In this document: positions 515 through 44,366 of the stretch, in pieces | Position numbering within the stretch: the first letter of the stretch is position 1 | Layout: each line of letters begins with the position of its first letter | NCBI GenBank assembly: GCA_964646415.1 | Contig: CAZYEL010000004.1 | Span: forward strand, 539-64,538 | DNA: 64,000 nt | Reading direction: 5' to 3' | Source of the DNA: an uncultured Candidatus Saccharibacteria bacterium | GTDB lineage: Bacteria > Patescibacteriota > Minisyncoccia > UBA6257 > 2-01-FULL-56-20 | Position numbers and translations under genes: made by a program | The notes under the pieces: generated by a model | The model's database searches: none | Told to the model about the DNA's origin: nothing | Seen by the model: only the letters and a program-made list of their open reading frames with translations

Positions 515-1390
515 ATGCACATAGTGGGTATTCTTTTCGCATTCGGCGCACTCCTTTCCTGGATTGGCGGCGATTTTTTTATCCAGCGCTCAACCCGCAA
601 AGTCGGCGATTGGGAAACGCTCTTCTTCATCGGCGCGGTGGGACTCGTCGGCATCTTCCCCTTTGTGCGGAACGAACTTCCTGCGCTCTTTGCAAATCAG
701 GAGCACATCGTTTTCCTGCTTACGCTCTCCGTCATCACGCTTGTCGCGGCGCTCTTCCTCTTTGAGGGCGTAAAGCGCGGCAAGCTTGCCGTGATTGAAC
801 CGGTGTACGGCCTTGAGCTTCCCTTCACCGTCGCCTTCAGCTATATCTTCGCGCACGAGCGCTTTCCCGCATACGTCTACGGCCTTATCTTTATGGTATT
901 CGCGGGAATCTTCCTCACCGTCGCAAAGCACCTCACCCACCTCCACTTTCATAAAACAATCCTCGAGAAAGGAGTCGTGTGGGCGGGCATCGGCTCCATC
1001 GGCATGGGATTTATGAATTATCTCTGGGGCGTGGGAAGCCAGACCATCTCCCCGCTCGCCACCATTTGGTTCGTCCACTCATTCCTCGCGATTGCCTGTT
1101 TCTTGTATCTCTTTGTGCACGGCAAACTCCCCATACTCGCCTCGCACTTTCGGCACGGCATCACGAACGTCATACCCGCGAGCATTTTCGATAACCTCGC
1201 CTGGACCTTTTACGGCTACTCGATGACCCTCATCCCCATCTCCATCGCCACCACCATCAGCGAGAGCTACATCGCAGGGCTTGTCCTTATTGGAATCGTC
1301 ATCAATCGGGAGAAAGTGGTGTGGCACCAGCGGCTGGGCATCGTGCTCGTCATCGCAGGCACCGCACTCATTTCGTGGTGGTTTGGGTGA
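515..1390 (+). CDS. EamA/DMT family transporter
   Basis: 291 aa, ~10 TM helices, two repeated 5-TM halves typical of the drug/metabolite transporter superfamily. Confidence 0.65.
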   Translation: MHIVGILFAFGALLSWIGGDFFIQRSTRKVGDWETLFFIGAVGLVGIFPFVRNELPALFANQEHIVFLLTLSVITLVAALFLFEGVKRGKLAVIEPVYGLELPFTVAFSYIFAHERFPAYVYGLIFMVFAGIFLTVAKHLTHLHFHKTILEKGVVWAGIGSIGMGFMNYLWGVGSQTISPLATIWFVHSFLAIACFLYLFVHGKLPILASHFRHGITNVIPASIFDNLAWTFYGYSMTLIPISIATTISESYIAGLVLIGIVINREKVVWHQRLGIVLVIAGTALISWWFG

Positions 1391-1436
1391 GTAACGTCAA
1401 GCAAAAACGGGCTTGTGAGAGAGGCAAATTCAAGGT

Positions 1437-3536
1437 ATGATTATGGCGTCGCAACAGGCGACTCTTTTTCATAATGCAATGCCTAAAAAAGCAGTAAAAA
1501 CGAGCGTAAAAAAAGAAGAGGCGAAGGGCGGGATTCCCAAACCGACCTCTTATGAAGCGAAGGATATCTACGTCCTTGAGGGGCTTGAGCCCGTCCGGAA
1601 ACGGCCGGGTATGTACATCGGCTCCACCGGTCCCGACGGACTCCATCACCTCGTCTGGGAAGTTGCGGACAACTCGATTGACGAAGCGATGGCGGGCTTC
1701 GCAAAGAACATCACCGTGGAACTTTTGCCCGACAAAAGCGTGGCGGTGACCGATGACGGCCGGGGCATTCCCGTCGAAACCCACCATCAGACGAAAAAGT
1801 CCGCACTCGAAACCGTAATGACCACGCTCCACGCCGGCGGCAAGTTTGGCGGCGAGTCGTATAAAGTCTCGGGCGGGCTCCATGGCGTGGGTGTTTCCGT
1901 CGTGAATGCACTCTCCGAATGGCTCCGCGCGGAAGTGTGCCGCAACGGAATCAGGTATGCGCAGGAATACAAACGCGGCGCTCCAACCGCCAAGGTGAAG
2001 AAAATCGGGACGTGCGGGCACACGGGTACCAAAGTCACCTTCTTCCCCGACGCGCAGATATTTCAGGAAATCGCGTTCAACGAGAAAAGAATCTTGGACC
2101 ACCTTCGCCAGCAGGCATATCTCACGAAAGGCGTGCGCATCAACTTCTTCGACAGGCGCGGAGAATCCGTTTCCTGCCACGGATTCTACTTCGAGGGAGG
2201 GCTGCTCTCGTTCGTGAAGCATCTCACCTACGACAAGAAACGGCTCCAGGAAGATGTTTTCCATATTCAAAAAGTGCACAGCGAGCTCGACGTTGAAGCC
2301 GCGTTTCTCTACATAGACGACTCTAAAACCGAGGAGCTCTCCTTTGCGAATAACATCTATACCCCCGACGGCGGGATGCACCTCACCGGTTTTCGCTCCG
2401 CCTTGACGAGAACTTTGAATAACTATGCACGCACCGAAGGGTATCTCAAGGAAAAGGACGAGAACTTCACGGCGGACGACGTGCGCGAAGGCATGGTCGC
2501 GGTTATCTCCGTAAAACTCCGCGAACCCCAATTCGAAGGGCAAACGAAAGCCCGCCTCGGGAATCCGGAAGCACGCACCTCAACCGAAGCAGTGGTGAAC
2601 GAATCCCTCAAAGAGTTCCTTGAGCGGCATCCGCAGGAAGCGCGCCGCATCATCGAAAAAGTGCTCCTCACCGCGAAAGCCCGCATTGCCGCCAAAGCCG
2701 CGAAGGAAACCGTGCTTCGGAAAGGCGCGCTTGAAGGGCTTACGCTTCCCGGAAAGCTTGCCGACTGCACTTCGAAAGACGCATCTGAATCGGAACTTTT
2801 CATTGTCGAGGGGGATTCCGCAGGCGGCACCGCGAAACAGGGGCGCGACCGGAGAACACAGGCGATCTTCCCGCTCCGCGGGAAGCCGCTGAACGTGGAG
2901 AAGGCGCGCCTCGACAAGATGCTCGCAAACACCGAAATCCGTTCGCTTGTGGTCGCCATAGGCACCGCCATCGCCGACGAATTCAATATGACAAGCCTCC
3001 GTTACCACAAAATAATCATCATGAGCGACGCCGATGTGGACGGCGCGCACATCAGGACGCTCCTCCTCACGCTTTTCTTCCGCCACTTCAGACCCGTAGT
3101 CGACGGCGGGTATGTGTATATCGCCCAGCCGCCGCTCTACCAGATAAAATCCGGCAAGAACGTGCACTACGCGTGGCTTGATGCGGAAAAAGACAAAATC
3201 CTTGCCTCGCTCGCCGCGCAGGCAAAGGCGAAAGGCAAACCAACGAAGGCGAAAGAAGAGGACGGGAATGAAGATGGAGATGAGAATAAGGACGAAGCAT
3301 CCGGGGAAAAAATTTCCGGCGTGAATGTACAGCGCTATAAAGGGTTGGGCGAAATGAATGCCGAGCAGCTTTGGGAAACTACTATGAATCCCGAACGCCG
3401 CATTTTGAAACAAGTTACCATCGACGACGCGGCGGAAGCAGACCGCCTCTTTGACATCCTTATGGGAGACGAAGTGGAACCCCGCAAGAAGTTCATCCAG
3501 ACTCACGCCGCTTCCGTGCAAAATCTTGACATATAA
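1437..3536 (+). CDS. gyrB: DNA gyrase subunit B
   Basis: 699 aa; GHKL ATPase motifs (GLHGVG), toprim EGDSAGG, PLRGK, C-terminal QTHAASVQNLDI-like tail. Confidence 0.95.
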   Translation: MIMASQQATLFHNAMPKKAVKTSVKKEEAKGGIPKPTSYEAKDIYVLEGLEPVRKRPGMYIGSTGPDGLHHLVWEVADNSIDEAMAGFAKNITVELLPDKSVAVTDDGRGIPVETHHQTKKSALETVMTTLHAGGKFGGESYKVSGGLHGVGVSVVNALSEWLRAEVCRNGIRYAQEYKRGAPTAKVKKIGTCGHTGTKVTFFPDAQIFQEIAFNEKRILDHLRQQAYLTKGVRINFFDRRGESVSCHGFYFEGGLLSFVKHLTYDKKRLQEDVFHIQKVHSELDVEAAFLYIDDSKTEELSFANNIYTPDGGMHLTGFRSALTRTLNNYARTEGYLKEKDENFTADDVREGMVAVISVKLREPQFEGQTKARLGNPEARTSTEAVVNESLKEFLERHPQEARRIIEKVLLTAKARIAAKAAKETVLRKGALEGLTLPGKLADCTSKDASESELFIVEGDSAGGTAKQGRDRRTQAIFPLRGKPLNVEKARLDKMLANTEIRSLVVAIGTAIADEFNMTSLRYHKIIIMSDADVDGAHIRTLLLTLFFRHFRPVVDGGYVYIAQPPLYQIKSGKNVHYAWLDAEKDKILASLAAQAKAKGKPTKAKEEDGNEDGDENKDEASGEKISGVNVQRYKGLGEMNAEQLWETTMNPERRILKQVTIDDAAEADRLFDILMGDEVEPRKKFIQTHAASVQNLDI

Positions 3537-3579
3537 CAGTAAAACCTATAGGGTAGATACGTTTATTAGGCCACTTAGC

Positions 3580-3768
3580 ATGTTTCGGAAAACAACGAAA
3601 TTTCTCCAAGAATCCCGCGAAGAGCTTCGCCACGTCAACTGGCCCACACGGAATGAGGCGGTTCGCCTTACCACGGTTGTGGTCGGCTTGTCGGTGGGAC
3701 TTGCGGTGTTTTTGGGGGCATTCGATTACGGATTCACCACGCTCATAAAAACGCTCATCGCACGATAA
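3580..3768 (+). CDS. secE: preprotein translocase subunit SecE
   Basis: 62 aa from internal ATG of ORF 3451-3768; ELRHVNWPTRNEA motif followed by a single TM helix; sits directly upstream of nusG (conserved secE-nusG order). Confidence 0.8.
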   Translation: MFRKTTKFLQESREELRHVNWPTRNEAVRLTTVVVGLSVGLAVFLGAFDYGFTTLIKTLIAR

Positions 3769-7342: not shown

Positions 7343-8179
7343 TTACAAACGCGCGCCCGTAAGATTACCGCTCTCGTATCGCCGGACTCCTTTGCGGAGC
7401 ACCCACACCGCAATCGCGGTCCAGAGCGCGGCGACAAGCCACACGACGGCTATCTTCACGACGCTCCAGCCCTGCACCGCCTCCACGGGGATGCCCCCGA
7501 TTGCAAGCGCGGGGAGAACAAAGATAAAAAAGAACCGCATGAAACCCTGGAACATTCCGGCGGGGTACAAGCTCGGCCCGAGCACTGATTCAAAGCTGAA
7601 TTTCGCAATCTCCGTGGCATCGTGGATAAAAAATCCGATGCATGCGGTCGCAAGAAGAAAGTTCATCATAATGAGCGCCGCCGGAAGTATCAGCGTCCCC
7701 AGCGCGAGAATTTGTCCGGCTGAAGGATGGGAAAAGAACCAATATACGCCGAGAAGCAAGATGCCGAAAAATATATCCCCTATTGCGGAAACCCGCGTGG
7801 TGAGGGTAAAAATGCGTGCATAGAGATTCCGCGGCGTGAGCAGTACCGAATCAAAGGCGCCGGTATAAATCGCGCTCGGAAGTTCATCCGCGCCGGAGAA
7901 AAATGAGAATACGATGCCGAACGCGAGCGCTACGAATCCTTGAAGCGCAATCGTTTCCTGTATATTCCATCCGTTGATGGTGCCAAACGCACCGAAGAAC
8001 AGCCACCACAAGAGCACGAAAGTGATGTTATTCACCATCATGCCCACAATCTGCATGGCGAAGGATATCCGCAGTTCCGCCGCGGACGCGATGTTGCACC
8101 GTATATATGCGGCAGCGACCCGAAGCTCCATACCCGCCGCACGCCGCCACACACGAAAATTTTTCTTCGTGAATCGCAT
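7343..8179 (-). CDS. ABC-2 family transporter permease
   Basis: 278 aa, 6 TM helices, ABC-2 exporter-like topology, in operon with the ABC ATPase. Confidence 0.65.
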   Translation of the reverse strand: MRFTKKNFRVWRRAAGMELRVAAAYIRCNIASAAELRISFAMQIVGMMVNNITFVLLWWLFFGAFGTINGWNIQETIALQGFVALAFGIVFSFFSGADELPSAIYTGAFDSVLLTPRNLYARIFTLTTRVSAIGDIFFGILLLGVYWFFSHPSAGQILALGTLILPAALIMMNFLLATACIGFFIHDATEIAKFSFESVLGPSLYPAGMFQGFMRFFFIFVLPALAIGGIPVEAVQGWSVVKIAVVWLVAALWTAIAVWVLRKGVRRYESGNLTGARL

Positions 8180-8180
8180 G

Positions 8181-9002
8181 TCAGCCCCCGTTTACCGAAA
8201 GTTTTCTCCGGACCTTTTCAAAGAGGAAAATGGCCGTGCCGCCGAGCACCGCAATCCAGAATCCCTGAAGAAGCGCCAACTGCCACCACGCGCCCGAAAA
8301 ATCAGGATTGAACATCTGTGTCGCAAACATCGGCGCGCCGAAGGGCGTGAGATTGGCAAGCGTGTGAAATGCCCCGGGGAGAAGCGCGAGCGGCACGTAG
8401 GAACCGCCAAGGATAAGCACGGCCTTGTCCACTATCCAGTATATGGGCTGCGCATCGTCAATCCAGAGCGCGGGCAAGGCAATGAGCATATAAAGCGCGG
8501 CGGAAACAACCGTCCCGCCCGCGGCGAGCACAAGCCCCGCAAGAAAACGCGGGAATGAAAAAACATCGGGCGCGCCGCCCAAAAAGAAAAGGAGAAGCGG
8601 CACCACCACTGCAACCGCCGCGAGAAAATGCAACATTCCCCTCCCGAGCTGCTCCCAAAACTTGTAAAAGAGGTATGTGTAGGGCTTATTGAGCTGCGCT
8701 TCAAGTTCCCCGCGCCGCATCTCGTCATTAATGGTTTTGAAGACCGTGCGGAACTGCGCGTAGAGCAGGAGGTGATATATTGCGATGCTCCAGATCGCCG
8801 TGGCGGCATCAATGCCGTTCACCGTCTTCCCGATATAGCGGAATGCGTAGGAGTAAATGAGGAGCATCATGACCACCCGGAATGTCGTGATGCACACGGA
8901 CGCCAGAAGCCGGTTTGGATAGTACAAACTTTCTTTAAGCGAGAGAGTAAACACCTTGCCATAGGCGCGCACCGCGCTTCCCGCGTTATACCGATGTGGC
9001 AT
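8181..9002 (-). CDS. ABC-2 family transporter permease
   Basis: 274 aa from internal ATG; 6 TM helices; overlaps the ATPase stop by 17 nt. Confidence 0.6.
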   Translation of the reverse strand: MPHRYNAGSAVRAYGKVFTLSLKESLYYPNRLLASVCITTFRVVMMLLIYSYAFRYIGKTVNGIDAATAIWSIAIYHLLLYAQFRTVFKTINDEMRRGELEAQLNKPYTYLFYKFWEQLGRGMLHFLAAVAVVVPLLLFFLGGAPDVFSFPRFLAGLVLAAGGTVVSAALYMLIALPALWIDDAQPIYWIVDKAVLILGGSYVPLALLPGAFHTLANLTPFGAPMFATQMFNPDFSGAWWQLALLQGFWIAVLGGTAIFLFEKVRRKLSVNGG

Positions 9003-9745
9003 GGGACTCGTATATTTTCCCGATAATTTCCTCGAGTGGCGGGTCTTCAATGGTAATGTCCTGGATATCCTTGTTGCGCAGAATATTCTTAATCGCATCG
9101 CCGATAGGAACCCGCGTAGTGTCCACCGCAAGAAGCGCCTCGCCTTTCTGATTTTTAAGAATATCGATGCCCTCGAGATGCATGACCGAAAGCGCATCTC
9201 TTTCCTCAAGCACCACGCGCACGATTTTCTGATTAAGATACTTTCTTTTCAGGCTCGCAGTCGCGCCGTCAAAAATGATGCGCCCGTGATTTATGATAAG
9301 CGTCCGCGCACACACCGACTCGATGTCCCCCGCATCATGCGAAGTGAGGAAAATGGTTGTCTTGAGATGCGCGTTGCTTGACTTTAAATTTTCCCGGAGC
9401 CGCCGCTTCGCCACAATATCCAGGCCGATTGTGGGTTCATCCAGGAAGACAATGGGCGGCCTATGAATTAGCGACGCCGCAATCTCGGCGCGCATCCGCT
9501 GCCCGAGCGAAAGCTTCCGCACCGGCTGGTCAAGAACATCCCCCAGCTCAAAGAGCGCGACTAGTTCATCGCGCTGCCGCTTGTATTCCGCGTCACCGAC
9601 CTCGTAAACCTTGGCGAATAAGTCGAAGGAATCGGAAATGGGAAGGTTAAAAAGCAGCTGCGAGCGCTGCCCGAAGACAGTGCCTATTTTCAAGGCAAGC
9701 CGCCGCCGGTCGTGCTGCGGGTCAAGTCCCAACACGCGCACCAGA
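8986..9745 (-). CDS. ABC transporter ATP-binding protein, C-terminal portion (Q-loop to H-loop)
   Basis: contains GTVFGQ (Q-loop), LSLGQRMR (signature), IVFLDEPTIGLD (Walker B) and H-loop; lacks Walker A. The upstream in-frame extension to 9948 has no stop but reads through structured non-coding sequence. Confidence 0.7.
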
Positions 9746-10549
9746 ACAGAACTTAACGGCTTTTTCAAAGCCAGAAGGTGGGACGCGCGAAGCGCGTCCC
9801 ACTGATTTCCCCCCATTTTTCCAAACGAATTCGGAGTCCCGCTTTCGGCGGGACGGAGGATTTTTTCGCCAAGAAGCAGGTGCGAGCCAAAGATTTCTTT
9901 GGCACAAACCTTTTTAGCAAAAAGGTCTGAATCAGAAGCATATGGCAAGTCATGGACTATTAATTAAGGTTACAAATAATTGTCAGTTCAACGATGCTGG
10001 AAGTTCTGTAACTCCTCCACAAATACCAAATTAGGAGATATAAGTGTAGTTTCTCACGGGAGCAATCCCCGCCGTTTTATAATATCTCCTAAAAACGGCG
10101 GGGATTGTTGTGCGCGCACAGGGCGGGCGGGGCAAGCACATACAGATTTGTTTGTGCTTAGCACAATCCATATTTAAGGAGTTACCACGAACAGTGAACG
10201 AAGTCACAGGATTTAGAGCTACCATAGAACGCGGAGAGGAAGTGCCTCGTCTCGCCGTGAGGACGGAGAAAAGAGCAATCAAAAGTTAAAAATTAAGTGA
10301 TGCTCTTTTAGTAGTCTGAAACGGCGAAGCAAAACCAAAAATTTCCTTTCCATTTTTTGTCGGCTCCCCCCACACCCCCCGCCGAAAATCTAAAAGAAAG
10401 GAAGGAAAATTTTTGGTTTTTGCTCCCGCGACCGAAGGGAGCGGACGAGGCGCGCAGAATCCGAGCGGACGATTTAGTTTCAAGCCACCACGCACGCGGA
10501 GCGTGCGACATCATTTGTTTTGAAAGTAAGTGCGAGCTTGGTACAATAG
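9746..10549 (-). other. ~800-nt non-coding hairpin-rich insertion splitting the ABC ATPase gene (candidate self-splicing intron or inserted MITE)
   Basis: no credible ORF; nested inverted repeats (10062-10107; 105-nt hairpin 10329-10433); several GAAA-tetraloop hairpins near 9760-9850; flanked by the two halves of one ABC ATPase; boundaries are +/- 15 nt. Confidence 0.4.
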
Positions 10550-10798
10550 AGACACTCTGCCCGCACTGGGCCATAAGATGCCGGTGAGCATCTTGATAGT
10601 TGTGGATTTTCCGGCCCCATTCGGGCCGATAAACGCCACCGATTCCCCCGTCTTAATGGAAAAGGACACATCATCCACCGCGGCGATGGAACGCGCGGCG
10701 GGCTTGAAAAAATTAGAAAGGAATCCCCGCTCAGGGTCTTTCGCCGGAAACGAAAAAGTTTTCGAGAGATGGGCAACTTCGACCGCCTTGTCAGCCAT
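10511..10798 (-). CDS. ABC transporter ATP-binding protein, N-terminal segment carrying Walker A
   Basis: FIGPNGAGKSTTIKMLTGILWPSAGRV; the reading frame terminates 12 codons after GRV, inside the insertion. Confidence 0.7.
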   Translation of the reverse strand: MADKAVEVAHLSKTFSFPAKDPERGFLSNFFKPAARSIAAVDDVSFSIKTGESVAFIGPNGAGKSTTIKMLTGILWPSAGRVSLLYQARTYFQNK

Positions 10799-10837
10799 AC
10801 AAGAAGTATAACTTACCCCTCATTCTTATCCTTATGC

Positions 10838-43857: not shown

Positions 43858-44283
43858 TTGAACCGAAGCGGAAAGGACGATTTCAAGTTTTTCTTTGGCG
43901 GCAAATTCATTACTGACCAAGAGTATCAGGCACTGAAAAACCGCCTCATCAAAGAAAAGACGGCTCTTGAGAGCGAGCTAAAGACCCACGGCAAGACGAT
44001 TGAGGAGTGGGTTGAGTTAAGCGAGCGGACTTTCAACTTCGCCCGTTACGCCCAAATGTGGTTCGCCAAAGGCGATATGGAAACACGGCGAGCTATCTTT
44101 GCCGCTTTAGGTTCGCACCTCATTATAAAAGACCAGAAACTCAATATAGAACTACATCCTTACTTCAAAATCATCTTTGAAAACCTTGAAGCAGTGGAAA
44201 AGGAGCTTATCAAAGTTAGAACCTCCGAAAGTGTAGTGAATAGAAGGCAAATCGCCGAAATTTTGGCGAAATGTCCTACTCTG
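43858..44283 (+). pseudogene. recombinase/integrase-like C-terminal fragment (coiled-coil region) abutting tRNA-Ser
   Basis: ORF 43858-44355 has no N-terminal catalytic domain; its 3' end reads through the tRNA-Ser gene; assignment is tentative. Confidence 0.35.
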
Positions 44284-44366
44284 CGGAGGGTGAGGGACTC
44301 GAACCCTCGAGGGATTGCTCCCGCACGCTTTCCAAGCGTGTGCCATAGCCGCTAGGCGAACCCTCC
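44284..44366 (-). tRNA. tRNA-Ser (anticodon GGA)
   Basis: minus-strand GGAGGGTTCGCCTAGCGGCTATGGCACACGCTTGGAAAGCGTGCGGGAGCAATCCCTCGAGGGTTCGAGTCCCTCACCCTCCG: 7-bp acceptor, long variable arm, T-loop GGTTCGAGTCC; CCA not encoded. Confidence 0.85.

What the first reader, a model, noticed from the sequence alone, without database searches (positions are those of the whole stretch)
8986..10798. ABC ATPase gene split by an ~800-nt hairpin-rich non-coding insertion (candidate intron in a protein-coding gene, or inserted MITE)
The Walker A segment (10550-10798) and the Q-loop/signature/Walker B segment (8986-9745) of one ABC ATPase are co-oriented in the same operon and separated by ~800 nt with no credible ORF. 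Joining ...SAGRV to RVLGLDP... would restore a normal-length protein. The spacer contains nested perfect inverted repeats (10062-10107; a 105-nt hairpin at 10329-10433) and three GAAA-tetraloop hairpins near its 3' end, which resembles a structured catalytic RNA or a MITE. Self-splicing introns inside bacterial protein-coding genes are rare; in CPR lineages introns are known mostly in rRNA genes. The splice junction cannot be placed exactly because GTG occurs on both sides; neither a canonical group II (GUGYG...AY) nor a group I (U...G) boundary fits cleanly.
Basis: partly seen in the sequence, partly recalled or inferred. Interest (0 to 1): 0.75.

Follow-up and report, generated by a model that had tools for sequence, protein, structure and literature searches.

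The report
Recombinase element remnant splitting ABC gene
The roughly 800-base "intron-like" spacer that splits this ABC transporter ATPase gene is the gutted remnant of a mobile element moved by a large serine recombinase; that element normally inserts at the 3' ends of tRNA genes in CPR (Patescibacteria) bacteria and here landed in a tRNA-look-alike sequence inside the gene.

Summary
One ABC-2-type ATPase gene on the minus strand is cut between ...SAGRV (ends 10553) and RVLGLDP... (starts 9738) by 811 nt plus a repeated GTG. A 95%-identical intact homologue has a single GTG at that point.

The insert is not an intron. No Rfam family matched it, including the group I and II intron models.

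Its last ~300 nt (10044-9742) are the decayed 3' end of a large serine recombinase (LSR) gene. Its first ~500 nt (10552-10054) are a conserved, hairpin-rich non-coding module, here called M. M begins with the element's P' attachment arm.

Both parts recur in more than 240 loci, almost all from Patescibacteria. In those loci the LSR reading frame runs through the P arm and a TG core into the 3' end (CCA, acceptor stem, T arm) of a convergent tRNA gene. This holds for 90 of 123 junctions. P-TG-P' (attP) junctions also occur.

The window therefore carries attL and attR of an LSR integration into a pseudo-attB site. That ABC site is the second-best match to the tRNA-arm profile among 126,310 positions; only the real tRNA scores higher.

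This is a non-autonomous deletion derivative that disrupts the gene. Whether it can still excise is untested. I found no paper describing the family.

The parts
10553..10798 (-). 5' part of the ABC-2-type transporter ATPase gene (Met1 to Val82, including Walker A). It acts as the B arm of attL.
   Evidence: Pfam ABC_tran. It is 100% identical to the abcN query in tblastn. It aligns with intact homologues up to ...AG(R/K)V.
10553..10555 (-). GTG of attL, the shared core region. The inferred crossover dinucleotide is TG.
   Evidence: The empty site in L247 has one GTG; the window has one at each junction. TG or GTG precedes P' in nearly all of 148 junctions.
10505..10552 (-). P' attachment arm (TCTCTATTGTACCAAGCTCGCACTTACTTTCAAAACAAATGATG). 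It contains a T-loop-like TCGCAC/TCGAACC motif 4 nt further from the core than in tRNA arms. It also encodes the LSR tail used in the attP state (SLLYQARTYFQNK*), which here is appended to the ABC N-terminal fragment. Its reverse complement holds an outward promoter-like site (+ strand 10520-10547).
   Evidence: P' is conserved next to P-TG in 17 genome loci and was recovered in 120 metagenome loci. Motif offset, compared with PMC3783163. Promoter-like site. Tail compared with the L065 and L036 ORFs and P0124.
10054..10552 (-). M module: the P' arm plus about 450 nt of conserved, hairpin-rich, non-coding sequence. It ends at a fixed boundary, ...AAAACGGCGGGGATTGCTCCC.
   Evidence: blastn hits in 137 loci; 87.5% identity over 505 nt to L065 and 82% to L243. 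The same end point is seen in L065, L114 and L019 with different flanks, and in L243. Conserved helices with some compensatory changes.
10328..10424 (.). Long imperfect hairpin inside M, with a G-rich centre (CGGCGGGGGGTGTGGGGGGAGCCG).
   Evidence: Inverted repeats I1 and I6. The stem sequence differs but stays complementary in other subfamilies: L008, L049, L066, L075, L036, L081.
10063..10107 (.). Perfect 16-bp hairpin at the end of M. Its loop (TAGGAGATAT) is also complementary to 10031-10041.
   Evidence: I5 and I13. The hairpin is conserved in L065, L114, L019 and L243.
9946..10044 (-). Decayed remnant of the LSR gene, about codons 410-445, with in-frame stop codons.
   Evidence: tblastn of LSR residues 410-522 against window 10044-9718: 63% identity, E 5e-34. 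Four stops. No blastn hit for 10053-9946 in about 240 loci.
9742..9945 (-). P arm: the conserved last ~68 codons of the LSR gene (...SDSDLFAKKVCAKEIFG...GKMGGNQWDALRASHLLALKKPLSSVL). It includes hairpins at 9778-9802 (GTGGGACGCGC-TTC-GCGCGTCCCAC), at 9758-9772 and around 9840-9856.
   Evidence: blastn hits in 156 loci, up to 96% identical. The 23-mer at 9778-9800 is exact in at least 119 genome stretches. It is the C-terminus of the 538-aa ORF that encodes the LSR in L065.
9739..9741 (-). GTG of attR (core region).
9714..9738 (-). Pseudo-B' arm: the native ABC codons CGCGTGTTGGGACTTGACCCGCAGC (RVLGLDPQ). They resemble the reverse complement of a tRNA acceptor stem plus T arm.
   Evidence: About 25 loci align through to 9719 because their tRNA 3' ends match this stretch. 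A position weight matrix built from 68 tRNA arms ranks this site 2nd of 126,310 positions.
8986..9738 (-). 3' part of the ABC ATPase gene (Q-loop, signature, Walker B, C-terminal domain). It is in frame with the recombinase remnant upstream.
   Evidence: Pfam, tblastn, alignments.
7343..9002 (-). Two downstream permease genes of the same operon: 8181-9002 (273 aa) and 7343-8152 (269 aa, ABC2_membrane_6). Both are intact.
   Evidence: Gene calls on L002 and L007 converted to window coordinates. The same gene order is found in L001 and L247.

Best explanation
**What it is.** The spacer is a non-autonomous deletion derivative of an integrative element that is mobilised by a large serine recombinase (LSR).

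**Structure of full-length relatives.** Read in the LSR direction, the inferred order is:
B - TG - P' - M - variable cargo - (an inverted short P copy joined to a second P') - LSR gene - P - TG - B'.
The LSR reading frame has no stop codon inside the element. It runs through the P arm and the crossover core into whatever lies beyond.

**Normal target.** The natural attB is the 3' end of a tRNA gene. The core TG is the reverse complement of tRNA positions 72-73, next to an encoded CCA. The B' arm is the acceptor stem and T arm. The tRNA gene stays intact after integration and is then followed by the hairpins of the P arm.

**What happened in this window.** A circular copy carrying attP (P-TG-P') recombined with a pseudo-attB inside the ABC ATPase gene, GGGCAGAG-TG-CGCGTGTTGGGACTTGACCC, whose right half mimics a tRNA 3' end. 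This produced attL (exon 1-TG-P'-M) and attR (P-TG-exon 2).

Everything between the end of M and about codon 410 of the LSR is absent, and the remaining LSR piece upstream of the P arm has decayed. The copy cannot move by itself.

**Effect on the gene.** The ATPase gene is interrupted. The Walker A fragment terminates in the P'-encoded tail SLLYQARTYFQNK*. The rest of the gene is fused in frame to a recombinase pseudogene tail that has no evident start signal.

**Shown versus inferred.**
- Shown: the sequence identities, the junction structures, the empty site and the target statistics.
- Inferred: the recombination chemistry and the TG crossover; integration as a small circle, or full-length integration followed by deletion; and loss of transporter function.
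For: 1. **The 3' part of the insert is an LSR gene tail.** tblastn of the L065 LSR, residues 410-522, matches window 10044-9718 at 63% identity, E 5e-34. The L065 protein has Resolvase, Recombinase and Zn_ribbon_recom domains. Its nearest named relatives are CcrB and XisF, and its nearest solved structure is the A118 integrase.
2. **The insert's sequences are widespread.** The 23-mer at 9778-9800 is exact in at least 119 genome stretches, almost all Patescibacteria. The P arm hits 156 loci and M hits 137 loci.
3. **The junction partners fit an LSR element that targets tRNA 3' ends.** Of 123 P-core junctions, 90 abut the 3' end of a convergent tRNA gene of at least 12 isotypes, and 17 abut P' (attP).
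4. **All four att sites are in hand.**
   - attP (L102)...GTTCTGTTCTGG TG TCTCTATTGTACC.
   - attB, empty site (L247, from a genome whose ATPase is 95% identical): GGGCAAAG TG CGTGTGCTGGGACTTGACCC.
   - Window attL and attR are exactly the two hybrids.
5. **The target is tRNA-like.** The ABC site ranks 2nd of 126,310 positions against a profile of 68 tRNA B' arms; only the real tRNA-Ser scores higher. The same site in the 80% homologue L001 scores 1.0 or less.
6. **The P' and B' arms differ in the way LSR sites do.** The TCGAACC motif lies 4 nt further from the core in P' than in tRNA B' arms. This parallels the 5-bp zinc-ribbon-motif shift between attP and attB described for A118-type integrases (PMC3783163).
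7. **The direct order and other deletion derivatives are seen elsewhere.** Long contigs show attL...cargo...LSR...attR (L241, L151, L204, L139, L235). L203 is a 125-nt element of the form B-TG-P'-P-TG-tRNA-like. L243 has M inserted after the seventh codon of an ORF.
8. **It is not an intron by model search.** No Rfam family matched.
Against: - No recombination has been observed for this family; att-site roles and the TG crossover are inferred by analogy with characterised LSRs.
- A simple M-then-LSR order with nothing between them is seen only in the window. Full elements carry an unexplained inverted short copy of P (94 or 144 nt) upstream of the LSR and occur in two orientations.
- The left deletion end point coincides exactly with the normal end of M, which a random deletion does not explain.
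- The ABC site scores only 9.3 bits against a median of 30 for real tRNA arms.
- Whether the rest of this genome encodes a matching LSR was not determined.
Confidence: 0.9

Rival explanations
1. Self-splicing group I or group II intron, or an unknown ribozyme-type intron, that is removed from the ABC mRNA so that a full-length ATPase is still made.
For: - The insert lies in a conserved codon context, and removing exactly 814 nt restores the frame.
- The fold is very stable (z = -9).
- GUGUC at one possible 5' boundary resembles GUGYG.
Against: - No Rfam intron family matches at E <= 10.
- No frame-restoring boundary has an exon-terminal U together with an intron-terminal G. There is no domain V.
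- The fold is equally stable on the antisense strand, as expected for DNA palindromes.
- 300 nt of the insert are a recombinase pseudogene.
- The same sequences elsewhere flank recombinase genes next to tRNA genes, not inside coding regions.
Confidence: 0.02
2. Conventional MITE: a miniature derivative of a DDE transposon with terminal inverted repeats and a target-site duplication, which has produced an ordinary pseudogene.
For: - It is multi-copy across genomes.
- It has no complete ORF.
- A 3-nt direct repeat (GTG) flanks it.
Against: - The two ends (TCTCTATTGTACC... and ...GTTAAGTTCTGTTCTG) are not inverted repeats.
- GTG/TG is constant at nearly all insertion sites rather than being a duplicated, variable target.
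- The associated enzyme is a serine recombinase.
- Insertion is site-specific for tRNA 3' ends.
Confidence: 0.03
3. Regulated gene interruption: the mini-element is kept as an excisable switch. An LSR (plus a directionality factor) encoded elsewhere in the genome removes it under some condition and restores the ATPase gene, as in the sigK skin element or the fdxN element.
For: - Both att arms are full length and well conserved, while the intervening recombinase piece has decayed.
- Both ABC halves and the downstream permease genes are intact ORFs, 95% identical to a functional-looking homologue.
- Precise attL x attR recombination would restore the gene exactly.
- Gene-interrupting integrative elements that behave this way are documented (PMC7192596, listed).
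Against: - No intact allele of this protein exists among about 15 billion sequences, although the split allele was assembled on 15 contigs from several samples.
- This is the only protein-gene interruption among the 123 P-side junctions classed; one further coding-region insertion (L243) was found on the P' side. The site is a weak tRNA mimic, so it looks accidental.
- No LSR gene is present in the 64-kb window.
Confidence: 0.12
4. Assembly chimera: the spacer was joined into the gene by mis-assembly of a repeat.
For: The element breaks many assemblies. Logan contigs end inside the insert.
Against: - The exon 1-insert junction is identical in at least 15 contigs from several samples.
- Both junctions have exactly the hybrid att structure expected of a real integration.
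- Two contigs in the 50-200 kb class carry the ORF that spans the right-hand junction.
Confidence: 0.01

Closest known systems
Large serine recombinase (serine integrase) integrative elements: phage A118/LI, phiC31 and Bxb1 integrases; SCCmec CcrAB
   Same: - The enzyme has the same three-domain architecture: Resolvase, Recombinase, zinc ribbon.
- Short att sites share only a small core.
- The product has hybrid attL and attR sites without a target duplication beyond the core.
- P' and B' carry a common motif at different distances from the core, as described for A118-type sites (PMC3783163).
- Use of pseudo-attB sites is known for such enzymes (for example PMC5937489, listed).
   Different: - The natural target is the generic 3' end of many different tRNA genes rather than one protein-coding gene.
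- The recombinase reading frame crosses the attachment site, so its last 13-16 residues depend on integration state.
- Elements are very small (about 2-6 kb, down to 125 nt).
- Elements carry inverted extra copies of the att arms, and the recombinase cassette occurs in two orientations.
- No directionality factor was identified.
Gene-interrupting elements excised by large serine recombinases (B. subtilis skin/SpoIVCA, Anabaena fdxN element/XisF; 'regulated gene integrity', PMC7192596)
   Same: A recombinase-bearing element sits inside a conserved gene, and precise excision would rebuild it. XisF is one of the nearest NCBIfam models, though below its cut-off.
   Different: Here the recombinase gene is destroyed, the site looks like an accidental tRNA mimic, and no excised allele was found.
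tRNA-gene-targeting genomic islands and tycheposons (mostly tyrosine integrases; Islander database PMC4383910; tycheposon preprint 10.1101/2020.12.28.424599)
   Same: Integration at the 3' part of tRNA genes, with several tRNA isotypes used and the tRNA kept functional. A minority of tycheposons encode a large serine recombinase.
   Different: - Those elements use mostly tyrosine recombinases and restore the tRNA from a displaced 3' fragment carried by the island.
- Here the crossover is at positions 72-73, so no tRNA sequence needs replacing. The enzyme is a serine recombinase and the hosts are Patescibacteria.
MITEs and other non-autonomous deletion derivatives of mobile elements
   Same: Short, ORF-less and multi-copy. 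It retains only the ends needed for mobilisation in trans and disrupts a gene.
   Different: The ends are asymmetric attachment arms for a site-specific recombinase, not terminal inverted repeats for a DDE transposase. There is no variable target-site duplication.
Group I and group II self-splicing introns
   Same: Similar size, strong predicted secondary structure, and a position inside a conserved coding sequence.
   Different: No match to any intron covariance model, no canonical boundaries, and the insert contains a recombinase pseudogene.

Membership tests
Group I intron | Conserved catalytic core (P3-P9 with a guanosine-binding site) detectable by covariance models | tested here: not met
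   cmscan of 9500-10800 against all 4227 Rfam families at E <= 10 gave no intron family. The gathering-threshold scan of the whole window found only one tRNA.
Group I intron | 5' exon ends in U (paired to G in P1) and the intron ends in G, at a boundary pair that restores the reading frame | tested here: not met
   I read the frame-restoring boundaries (814 nt removed) directly from the sequence. None has both an exon-terminal U and an intron-terminal G. The U...G combination exists only if an extra residue is added, and no homologue has that residue.
Group II intron | 5' GUGYG, domain V (34-nt AGC...GNRA hairpin with a 2-nt bulge), bulged A in domain VI, 3' AY | tested here: not met
   There is no hit to the Rfam group II families. 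The 3'-proximal hairpins are perfect stems without an AGC triad or bulge. The possible 3' ends are ...CUG, CUGG, UGGU or GGUG.
MITE (DDE-transposon derivative) | Terminal inverted repeats | tested here: not met
   The ends TCTCTATTGTACCAAGC... and ...GCCGTTAAGTTCTGTTCTG show no inverted-repeat relation.
MITE (DDE-transposon derivative) | Target-site duplication of fixed length and variable sequence | tested here: not met
   The flanking repeat is always GTG or TG, at 148 junctions. It is therefore a shared core and not a duplicated target.
MITE (DDE-transposon derivative) | Many copies, non-autonomous | tested here: met
   There is no second copy in the 64-kb window. Homologous arms occur in more than 240 loci of other genomes and metagenomes, and other deletion derivatives exist (L203).
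Large-serine-recombinase integrative element | Encodes a recombinase with an N-terminal resolvase catalytic domain, a recombinase domain and a zinc ribbon | tested here: met
   Full-length relatives such as L065 have PF00239, PF07508 and PF13408. The window keeps only residues ~410-522, as a pseudogene.
Large-serine-recombinase integrative element | attL and attR are reciprocal hybrids of an attP and an attB that share a short core | tested here: met
   attP is taken from L102, L065 and others, and attB from the empty site of L247. The window junctions equal B-TG-P' and P-TG-B'.
Large-serine-recombinase integrative element | attP and attB half-sites carry a common recognition motif displaced by about half a helical turn | tested here: met
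   TCGAACC starts at +19 from the core in P' and at +15 in the consensus of 68 tRNA B' arms. The reference shift is 5 bp (PMC3783163). In the window's own P' the motif reads TCGCAC.
Large-serine-recombinase integrative element | Catalysed attP x attB recombination with a 2-bp staggered break | not testable with these tools
   Needs biochemistry or in vivo assays.
Regulated gene integrity / developmentally excised element | Precise excision restores an intact, functional gene | tested here: met
   Removing 814 nt gives a protein 95% identical, without gaps, to intact P0122. This shows that restoration is possible, not that it occurs.
Regulated gene integrity / developmentally excised element | Excised (intact) allele or circular junction detectable in the population; recombinase available | tested here: inconclusive
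   The exact intact protein is absent from the 15-billion-sequence collection, and there is no LSR in the window. Raw reads and the rest of the genome could not be examined.
IS607-type serine transposon | Small serine recombinase (about 200 aa) with an N-terminal DNA-binding domain and a C-terminal catalytic domain | tested here: not met
   The enzyme is 527-538 aa with an N-terminal catalytic domain. The NCBIfam IS607 model scores 19 bits against a cut-off of 110.

The most novel reading that the evidence does not exclude
The window's insert is a trans-mobilisable mini-member of an undescribed family of large-serine-recombinase elements that is widespread in CPR bacteria.

- The family's attB is the generic 3' end of tRNA genes: T arm, acceptor stem and CCA, with the crossover at positions 72-73 and the core co-varying with the discriminator base.
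- The roughly 500-nt hairpin-rich M module would be a functional structured nucleic acid. It might, for example, control recombinase expression or directionality together with the invertible recombinase cassette.
- If so, copies like this one could reversibly switch genes off and on, and the enzymes would be naturally multi-site integrases.
Probability: 0.15. Interest if true: 0.7.

Novelty: new variant of a known kind. Interest (0 to 1): 0.45.

Why it matters
**For this locus.** The result removes a tempting false positive. There is no evidence for a self-splicing intron in a CPR protein-coding gene. The gene is simply interrupted by mobile DNA, so the transporter is probably inactive in this organism.

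**For the element family.** The family it exposes may be worth attention in four respects.
- It is a compact serine-integrase system found across many Patescibacteria classes.
- It uses the universal tRNA 3' end as a landing site and tolerates many tRNA isotypes.
- It has attachment arms that can be defined to the base from natural attP, attB, attL and attR examples.
- It has natural derivatives as small as 125 nt.

Serine integrases are sought as genome-engineering tools, so a multi-target family with an easily predicted target could be of practical interest.

**For CPR genomics.** The elements also appear to fragment CPR assemblies. Many contigs end inside the inverted repeats. Some carrying contigs sit in bins of unrelated phyla, which matters for the quality of metagenome-assembled genomes.

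I found no paper describing the family in six of the seven full-text searches run, but that library is incomplete.

Tried and rejected
**Searches and tests that gave nothing or ruled something out**
- **Rfam.** An E-value scan of 9500-10800 and a gathering-threshold scan of the whole window found only weak chance hits to miRNA and sRNA models.
- **Second copy in the window.** None found by blastn with word size 7.
- **Manual search for intron boundaries and a domain V-like hairpin.** None fit.
- **Hairpin inversion.** I tested whether this explained the 5 mismatches to the public record. They are clustered substitutions, not an inversion.
- **tmRNA-like or other host RNA gene.** I considered whether M, read on the opposite strand, is such a gene ending in CACCA. 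I rejected this because there is no Rfam hit, no T-arm pairing, and M lies inside a coding gene here.
- **Second attachment site at the far end of M.** Rejected. The flanks there share no TG core and no similarity to P'.
- **Same ABC site in other genomes.** I first thought the loci whose homology ran on to 9719 carried the element in the same ABC gene. They do not. The extra homology is to tRNA 3' ends, and tblastn finds no ABC gene beside the element in those loci.
- **L081 as a second clean 'M...deleted LSR' copy.** Rejected, because it is rearranged by an IS5-like transposase.
- **Literature.** Searches on CPR, Patescibacteria or Parcubacteria combined with serine recombinase and tRNA found nothing specific.

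**Not attempted**
- Structure prediction, which was not needed.
- A search of the remaining contigs of GCA_016190325.1.


Full report
**1. The observation**

The minus strand between 10798 and 8986 carries the two halves of one ABC-2-type transporter ATPase gene.
- ORF 10798..10511 has the Walker A part of Pfam ABC_tran (profile positions 2-45).
- ORF 9948..8986 has the rest (positions 53-136).
- The joined 332-aa protein covers the whole domain.

All of the 120 best database homologues are uninterrupted proteins of 308-393 aa. They have exactly one residue between the V of ...G-x-V and the VLG that follows.

The window comes from GCA_016190325.1, contig JACPQV010000018.1, which NCBI names Candidatus Liptonbacteria bacterium. 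The left junction was assembled independently in at least 15 contigs from several runs, so it is not a chimera.

A 95%-identical intact homologue, P0122, reads AGKVRVLGLDP. Its DNA (L247) has GGGCAAA-GTG-CGTGTGCTGGGACTTGACCC. The window has GGGCAGA-GTG-TCTCTATTG... on the left and ...GTTCTGTTCTG-GTG-CGCGTGTTGGGACTTGACCC on the right. The insert is therefore 811 nt plus a repeated GTG, and removing 814 nt rebuilds the gene precisely.

The region folds about 9 standard deviations better than shuffled sequence, but it does so on both strands alike.

**2. Not an intron**

A covariance-model scan of 9500-10800 against all 4227 Rfam families at E <= 10 returned only chance-level microRNA and sRNA hits. 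There was no group I or group II family. No frame-restoring boundary pair has the U...G of group I or the GUGYG...AY plus domain V of group II (sequence). The insert has no second copy in the 64-kb window and is less GC-rich than its flanks (47% against 53-55%).

**3. What the insert is made of**

A 23-nt hairpin sequence from the 3' part of the insert (9778-9800) was used as an exact pattern against one genome per species. Almost all are Patescibacteria of many classes. Many matches lie close to contig ends, and several contigs have two inverted copies 1.65-2.1 kb apart.

In L065 the DNA between two such copies holds a 538-aa ORF that encodes a 527-aa protein with Resolvase, Recombinase and zinc-ribbon domains. 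This is a large serine recombinase (LSR). Its nearest named relatives are CcrB and XisF, and its nearest solved structure is the A118 integrase.

The C-terminus of that protein (...SDDDLFAKKVKAKEIFG...GKMGGNQWDALRASHLLALKKPLSSVLV) is the 'N-terminal extension' of the window's 320-aa ORF. tblastn aligns LSR residues 410-522 to window 10044-9718 (63% identity, E 5e-34).
- The upstream third of that remnant (10044-9946) contains four in-frame stops and has no nucleotide-level match in about 240 loci.
- The last 204 nt (9945-9742, the 'P arm') match 156 loci at up to 96% identity.

The first ~500 nt of the insert (10552-10054, 'M') match 137 loci. M begins with a strongly conserved ~45-nt 'P' arm' (TCTCTATTGTACCAAGCTCGCAC...). 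It ends at the same base (...GGGGATTGCTCCC) in L065, L114, L019 and L243, where different sequences follow.

**4. How the family is built and where it normally sits**

I mapped LSR, P, P', M and tRNA genes on 119 genome loci and 120 metagenome loci.

At 90 of 123 P-side junctions, the LSR frame runs through P into TGG-TG and then directly into the 3' end of a tRNA gene on the other strand. The isotype counts are Arg 27, Leu 17, Thr 16, Gly 9, Val 5, Lys 4, Glu 3, Tyr 3, with Ala, Ile, Met and Phe also seen.

TGGTG is the reverse complement of C72-A73-CCA, so the tRNA gene is left complete. A subfamily with a different P arm has TGG-AG and sits mainly at tRNA-Thr, whose discriminator base is U.

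At 17 junctions P-TG is followed by P'-M. That is the unrecombined attP. On the P' side, most junctions are of the attL type: an unrelated sequence, then (G)TG, then P'.

Long contigs give the order B-TG-P'-M-cargo-(inverted P'-CA-short P copy)-LSR-P-TG-tRNA. The cargo is 2.5-3.5 kb; in L065 and L114 it includes an XRE-type regulator gene. These contigs are L241, L151, L204, L139 and L235, with the arrangement also seen in L065 and L114.

The P' arm carries TCGAACC 4 nt further from the core than the same T-loop-derived motif in tRNA arms. In the A118-type integrase the zinc-ribbon recognition motif is likewise displaced by 5 bp between attP and attB (PMC3783163). I take this as support for the att-site assignment, by analogy only.

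**5. Why the ABC gene was hit**

The native ABC codons after the GTG (CGCGTGTTGGGACTTGACCCGC, encoding RVLGLDP) resemble the reverse complement of a tRNA acceptor stem and T arm (TGGTGCGCGTGGCGGGACTTGAACCCGC). This is why about 25 loci appeared to align 20 nt beyond the insert.

I built a position weight matrix from 68 genuine tRNA arms and scored the insert-free window on both strands.
- The ABC site ranks second of 126,310 positions (9.3 bits; background mean -36, sd 10).
- Only the window's one real tRNA gene (tRNA-Ser, 44283-44366) scores higher.
- The same site in the 80% homologue L001 scores 1.0 or less.

The site is still much weaker than real targets, whose median is 30 bits. It is the only protein-gene interruption among the 123 P-side junctions I classed; on the P' side, L243 has M inserted after the seventh codon of an ORF. 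I therefore read the ABC insertion as an off-target (pseudo-attB) integration.

**6. The state of this copy**

The window has attL (exon 1-TG-P'-M) and attR (P-TG-exon 2) in direct order. Everything between the end of M and LSR codon ~410 is missing.

Other deletion derivatives in the same direct order exist. L203 is a 125-nt element: B-TG-65 nt of P'-55 nt of P-TG-tRNA-like arm.

Two routes could have produced the window's copy:
- integration as a small circle mobilised in trans;
- full-length integration followed by an internal deletion.

The evidence cannot separate these. The coincidence of the deletion end point with the normal end of M, and the good preservation of both arms next to a decayed middle, mildly favour a mini-element that persisted as such.

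By chance the LSR frame and the ABC frame coincide across the core. As a result the Walker A fragment ends in the P'-encoded tail SLLYQARTYFQNK*, which is the normal LSR tail in the attP state. The ABC C-terminal part is fused to the recombinase remnant.

No LSR gene is in the window. The exact intact protein is absent from about 15 billion sequences. The simplest functional reading is an inactivated ATPase gene, with two still-intact permease genes downstream.

**7. What remains unexplained**

- Full elements carry an inverted 94- or 144-nt copy of the end of P just upstream of the LSR gene. This copy is joined through the core either to P'-M or to a second tRNA gene. The LSR cassette occurs in both orientations relative to P'-M, with 20 loci in one orientation and 8 in the other. 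I do not know whether the LSR or homologous recombination does the flipping, or what it achieves.
- The reverse complement of P' contains a conserved outward promoter-like site: TTGAAA/TTGGAA, a 16-nt spacer in the window's copy, then TG-n-TACAAT/TATAAT/TAAAAT (window + strand 10520-10547). In one orientation it points into the LSR gene. A link between flipping and LSR expression is a guess.
- M has conserved helices. The long hairpin keeps its pairing with different sequences in other subfamilies. Within nine close copies, 6 of 96 predicted pairs show compensatory changes and several show U-G/C-G alternation on the M-sense strand. That is suggestive of a selected structure, not proof. The function of M is unknown.

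**8. Comparison with known systems, and novelty**

- **How it works.** Mechanistically this is a serine-integrase integrative element.
- **What this copy resembles.** The window's copy behaves like a MITE-type, non-autonomous derivative.
- **Its effect.** This resembles gene-interrupting elements such as skin/SpoIVCA or fdxN/XisF (PMC7192596), but there is no evidence of regulated excision.
- **What is unusual for the family.** Four features stand out: the generic tRNA 3' end as target, which is typical of tyrosine integrases and, in a minority, of tycheposons; the recombinase frame crossing the att site; the very small size; and the inverted att copies.

Six of the seven literature searches looked for a description of this family and returned none. 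The library lacks most subscription journals, so this is weak evidence of novelty.

I rate the finding as a new variant of a known kind. The intron hypothesis that made it exciting is rejected, and the underlying element family is moderately interesting.

Noticed in passing
window 10390-10397: The window differs from the public record JACPQV010000018.1 (L002) and from a Logan contig (L005) at five clustered bases: 10397, 10396, 10392, 10391 and 10390. The window has TC..TAG and the record has AA..ATA. The bases lie inside the long hairpin of M. Related copies have AA..TAG. One Logan contig (L003) stops at 10402, just before this spot, which suggests strain polymorphism.
   Followed up: partly
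window 10520-10547 (+ strand); same position in L049, L065, L075 and others: The reverse complement of the P' arm holds a conserved outward-facing sigma-70-like promoter: TTGAAA, 16 nt, TG-n-TACAAT. Other copies keep TTGGAA/TTGAAA and TACAAT/TATAAT/TAAAAT. In one orientation of the full elements it points into the recombinase gene. In the window it points antisense into the 5' half of the ABC gene.
   Followed up: partly
L141, L211, L212, L201, L239 versus L148, L156, L205, L208, L225 and others: The recombinase cassette, flanked by 94- or 144-nt inverted copies of the P arm, occurs in both orientations relative to P'-M (8 versus 20 loci). This looks like an invertible segment.
   Followed up: partly
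L009, L011, L014, L015, L026, L039, L046, L063, L068 and many others: From the positions listed I estimate (not counted by script) that a third or more of the genome hits lie within about 200 nt of a contig end, so this element fragments CPR assemblies. Several carrying contigs are binned as Nitrospirae, Gammaproteobacteria, Planctomycetales, Bdellovibrionales, Deltaproteobacteria or Nanoarchaeota, which probably reflects mis-binning.
   Followed up: no
L035, L039, L042, L046, L054, L056, L083, L091, L106, L111 and others: A subfamily has a different P arm (...TTTTTCTACAAAACTGGAG) and core TGG-AG in place of TGG-TG. It sits mainly at tRNA-Thr, whose discriminator base is U. The core appears to co-vary with the discriminator base.
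   Followed up: partly
L203 2425-2560: A 125-nt miniature element made only of about 65 nt of P' and about 55 nt of P, between two TG cores and next to a tRNA-like arm. It is the smallest derivative seen.
   Followed up: partly
L243 about 1689-2230 (- strand): A full M module is inserted after the seventh codon of an ORF with a good ribosome-binding site (AGGAGG...ATGGCTAAAATTTTCATCGAG-TG-TCTC). This is a second case of insertion into coding sequence. No P arm follows M in this locus.
   Followed up: no
L065 115-2319; L114 about 560-3700: The cargo between inverted M copies includes the same XRE-family helix-turn-helix gene in both loci. In L065 it also includes two predicted membrane or secreted proteins of 317 and 342 aa, of unknown function.
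   Followed up: no
window 44283-44366: The only tRNA gene in the window (tRNA-Ser, GGA anticodon, minus strand) carries no copy of the element. Its 3' end does not encode CCA next to the acceptor stem.
   Followed up: no
L102 (JACPXJ010000024.1, Candidatus Nomurabacteria, same groundwater study): In a MAG assigned to a different CPR lineage from the same study, M is 96.8% identical over its first 188 nt (mod5 positions 1-188) to the window's copy. This suggests recent horizontal movement, or mis-binning.
   Followed up: no
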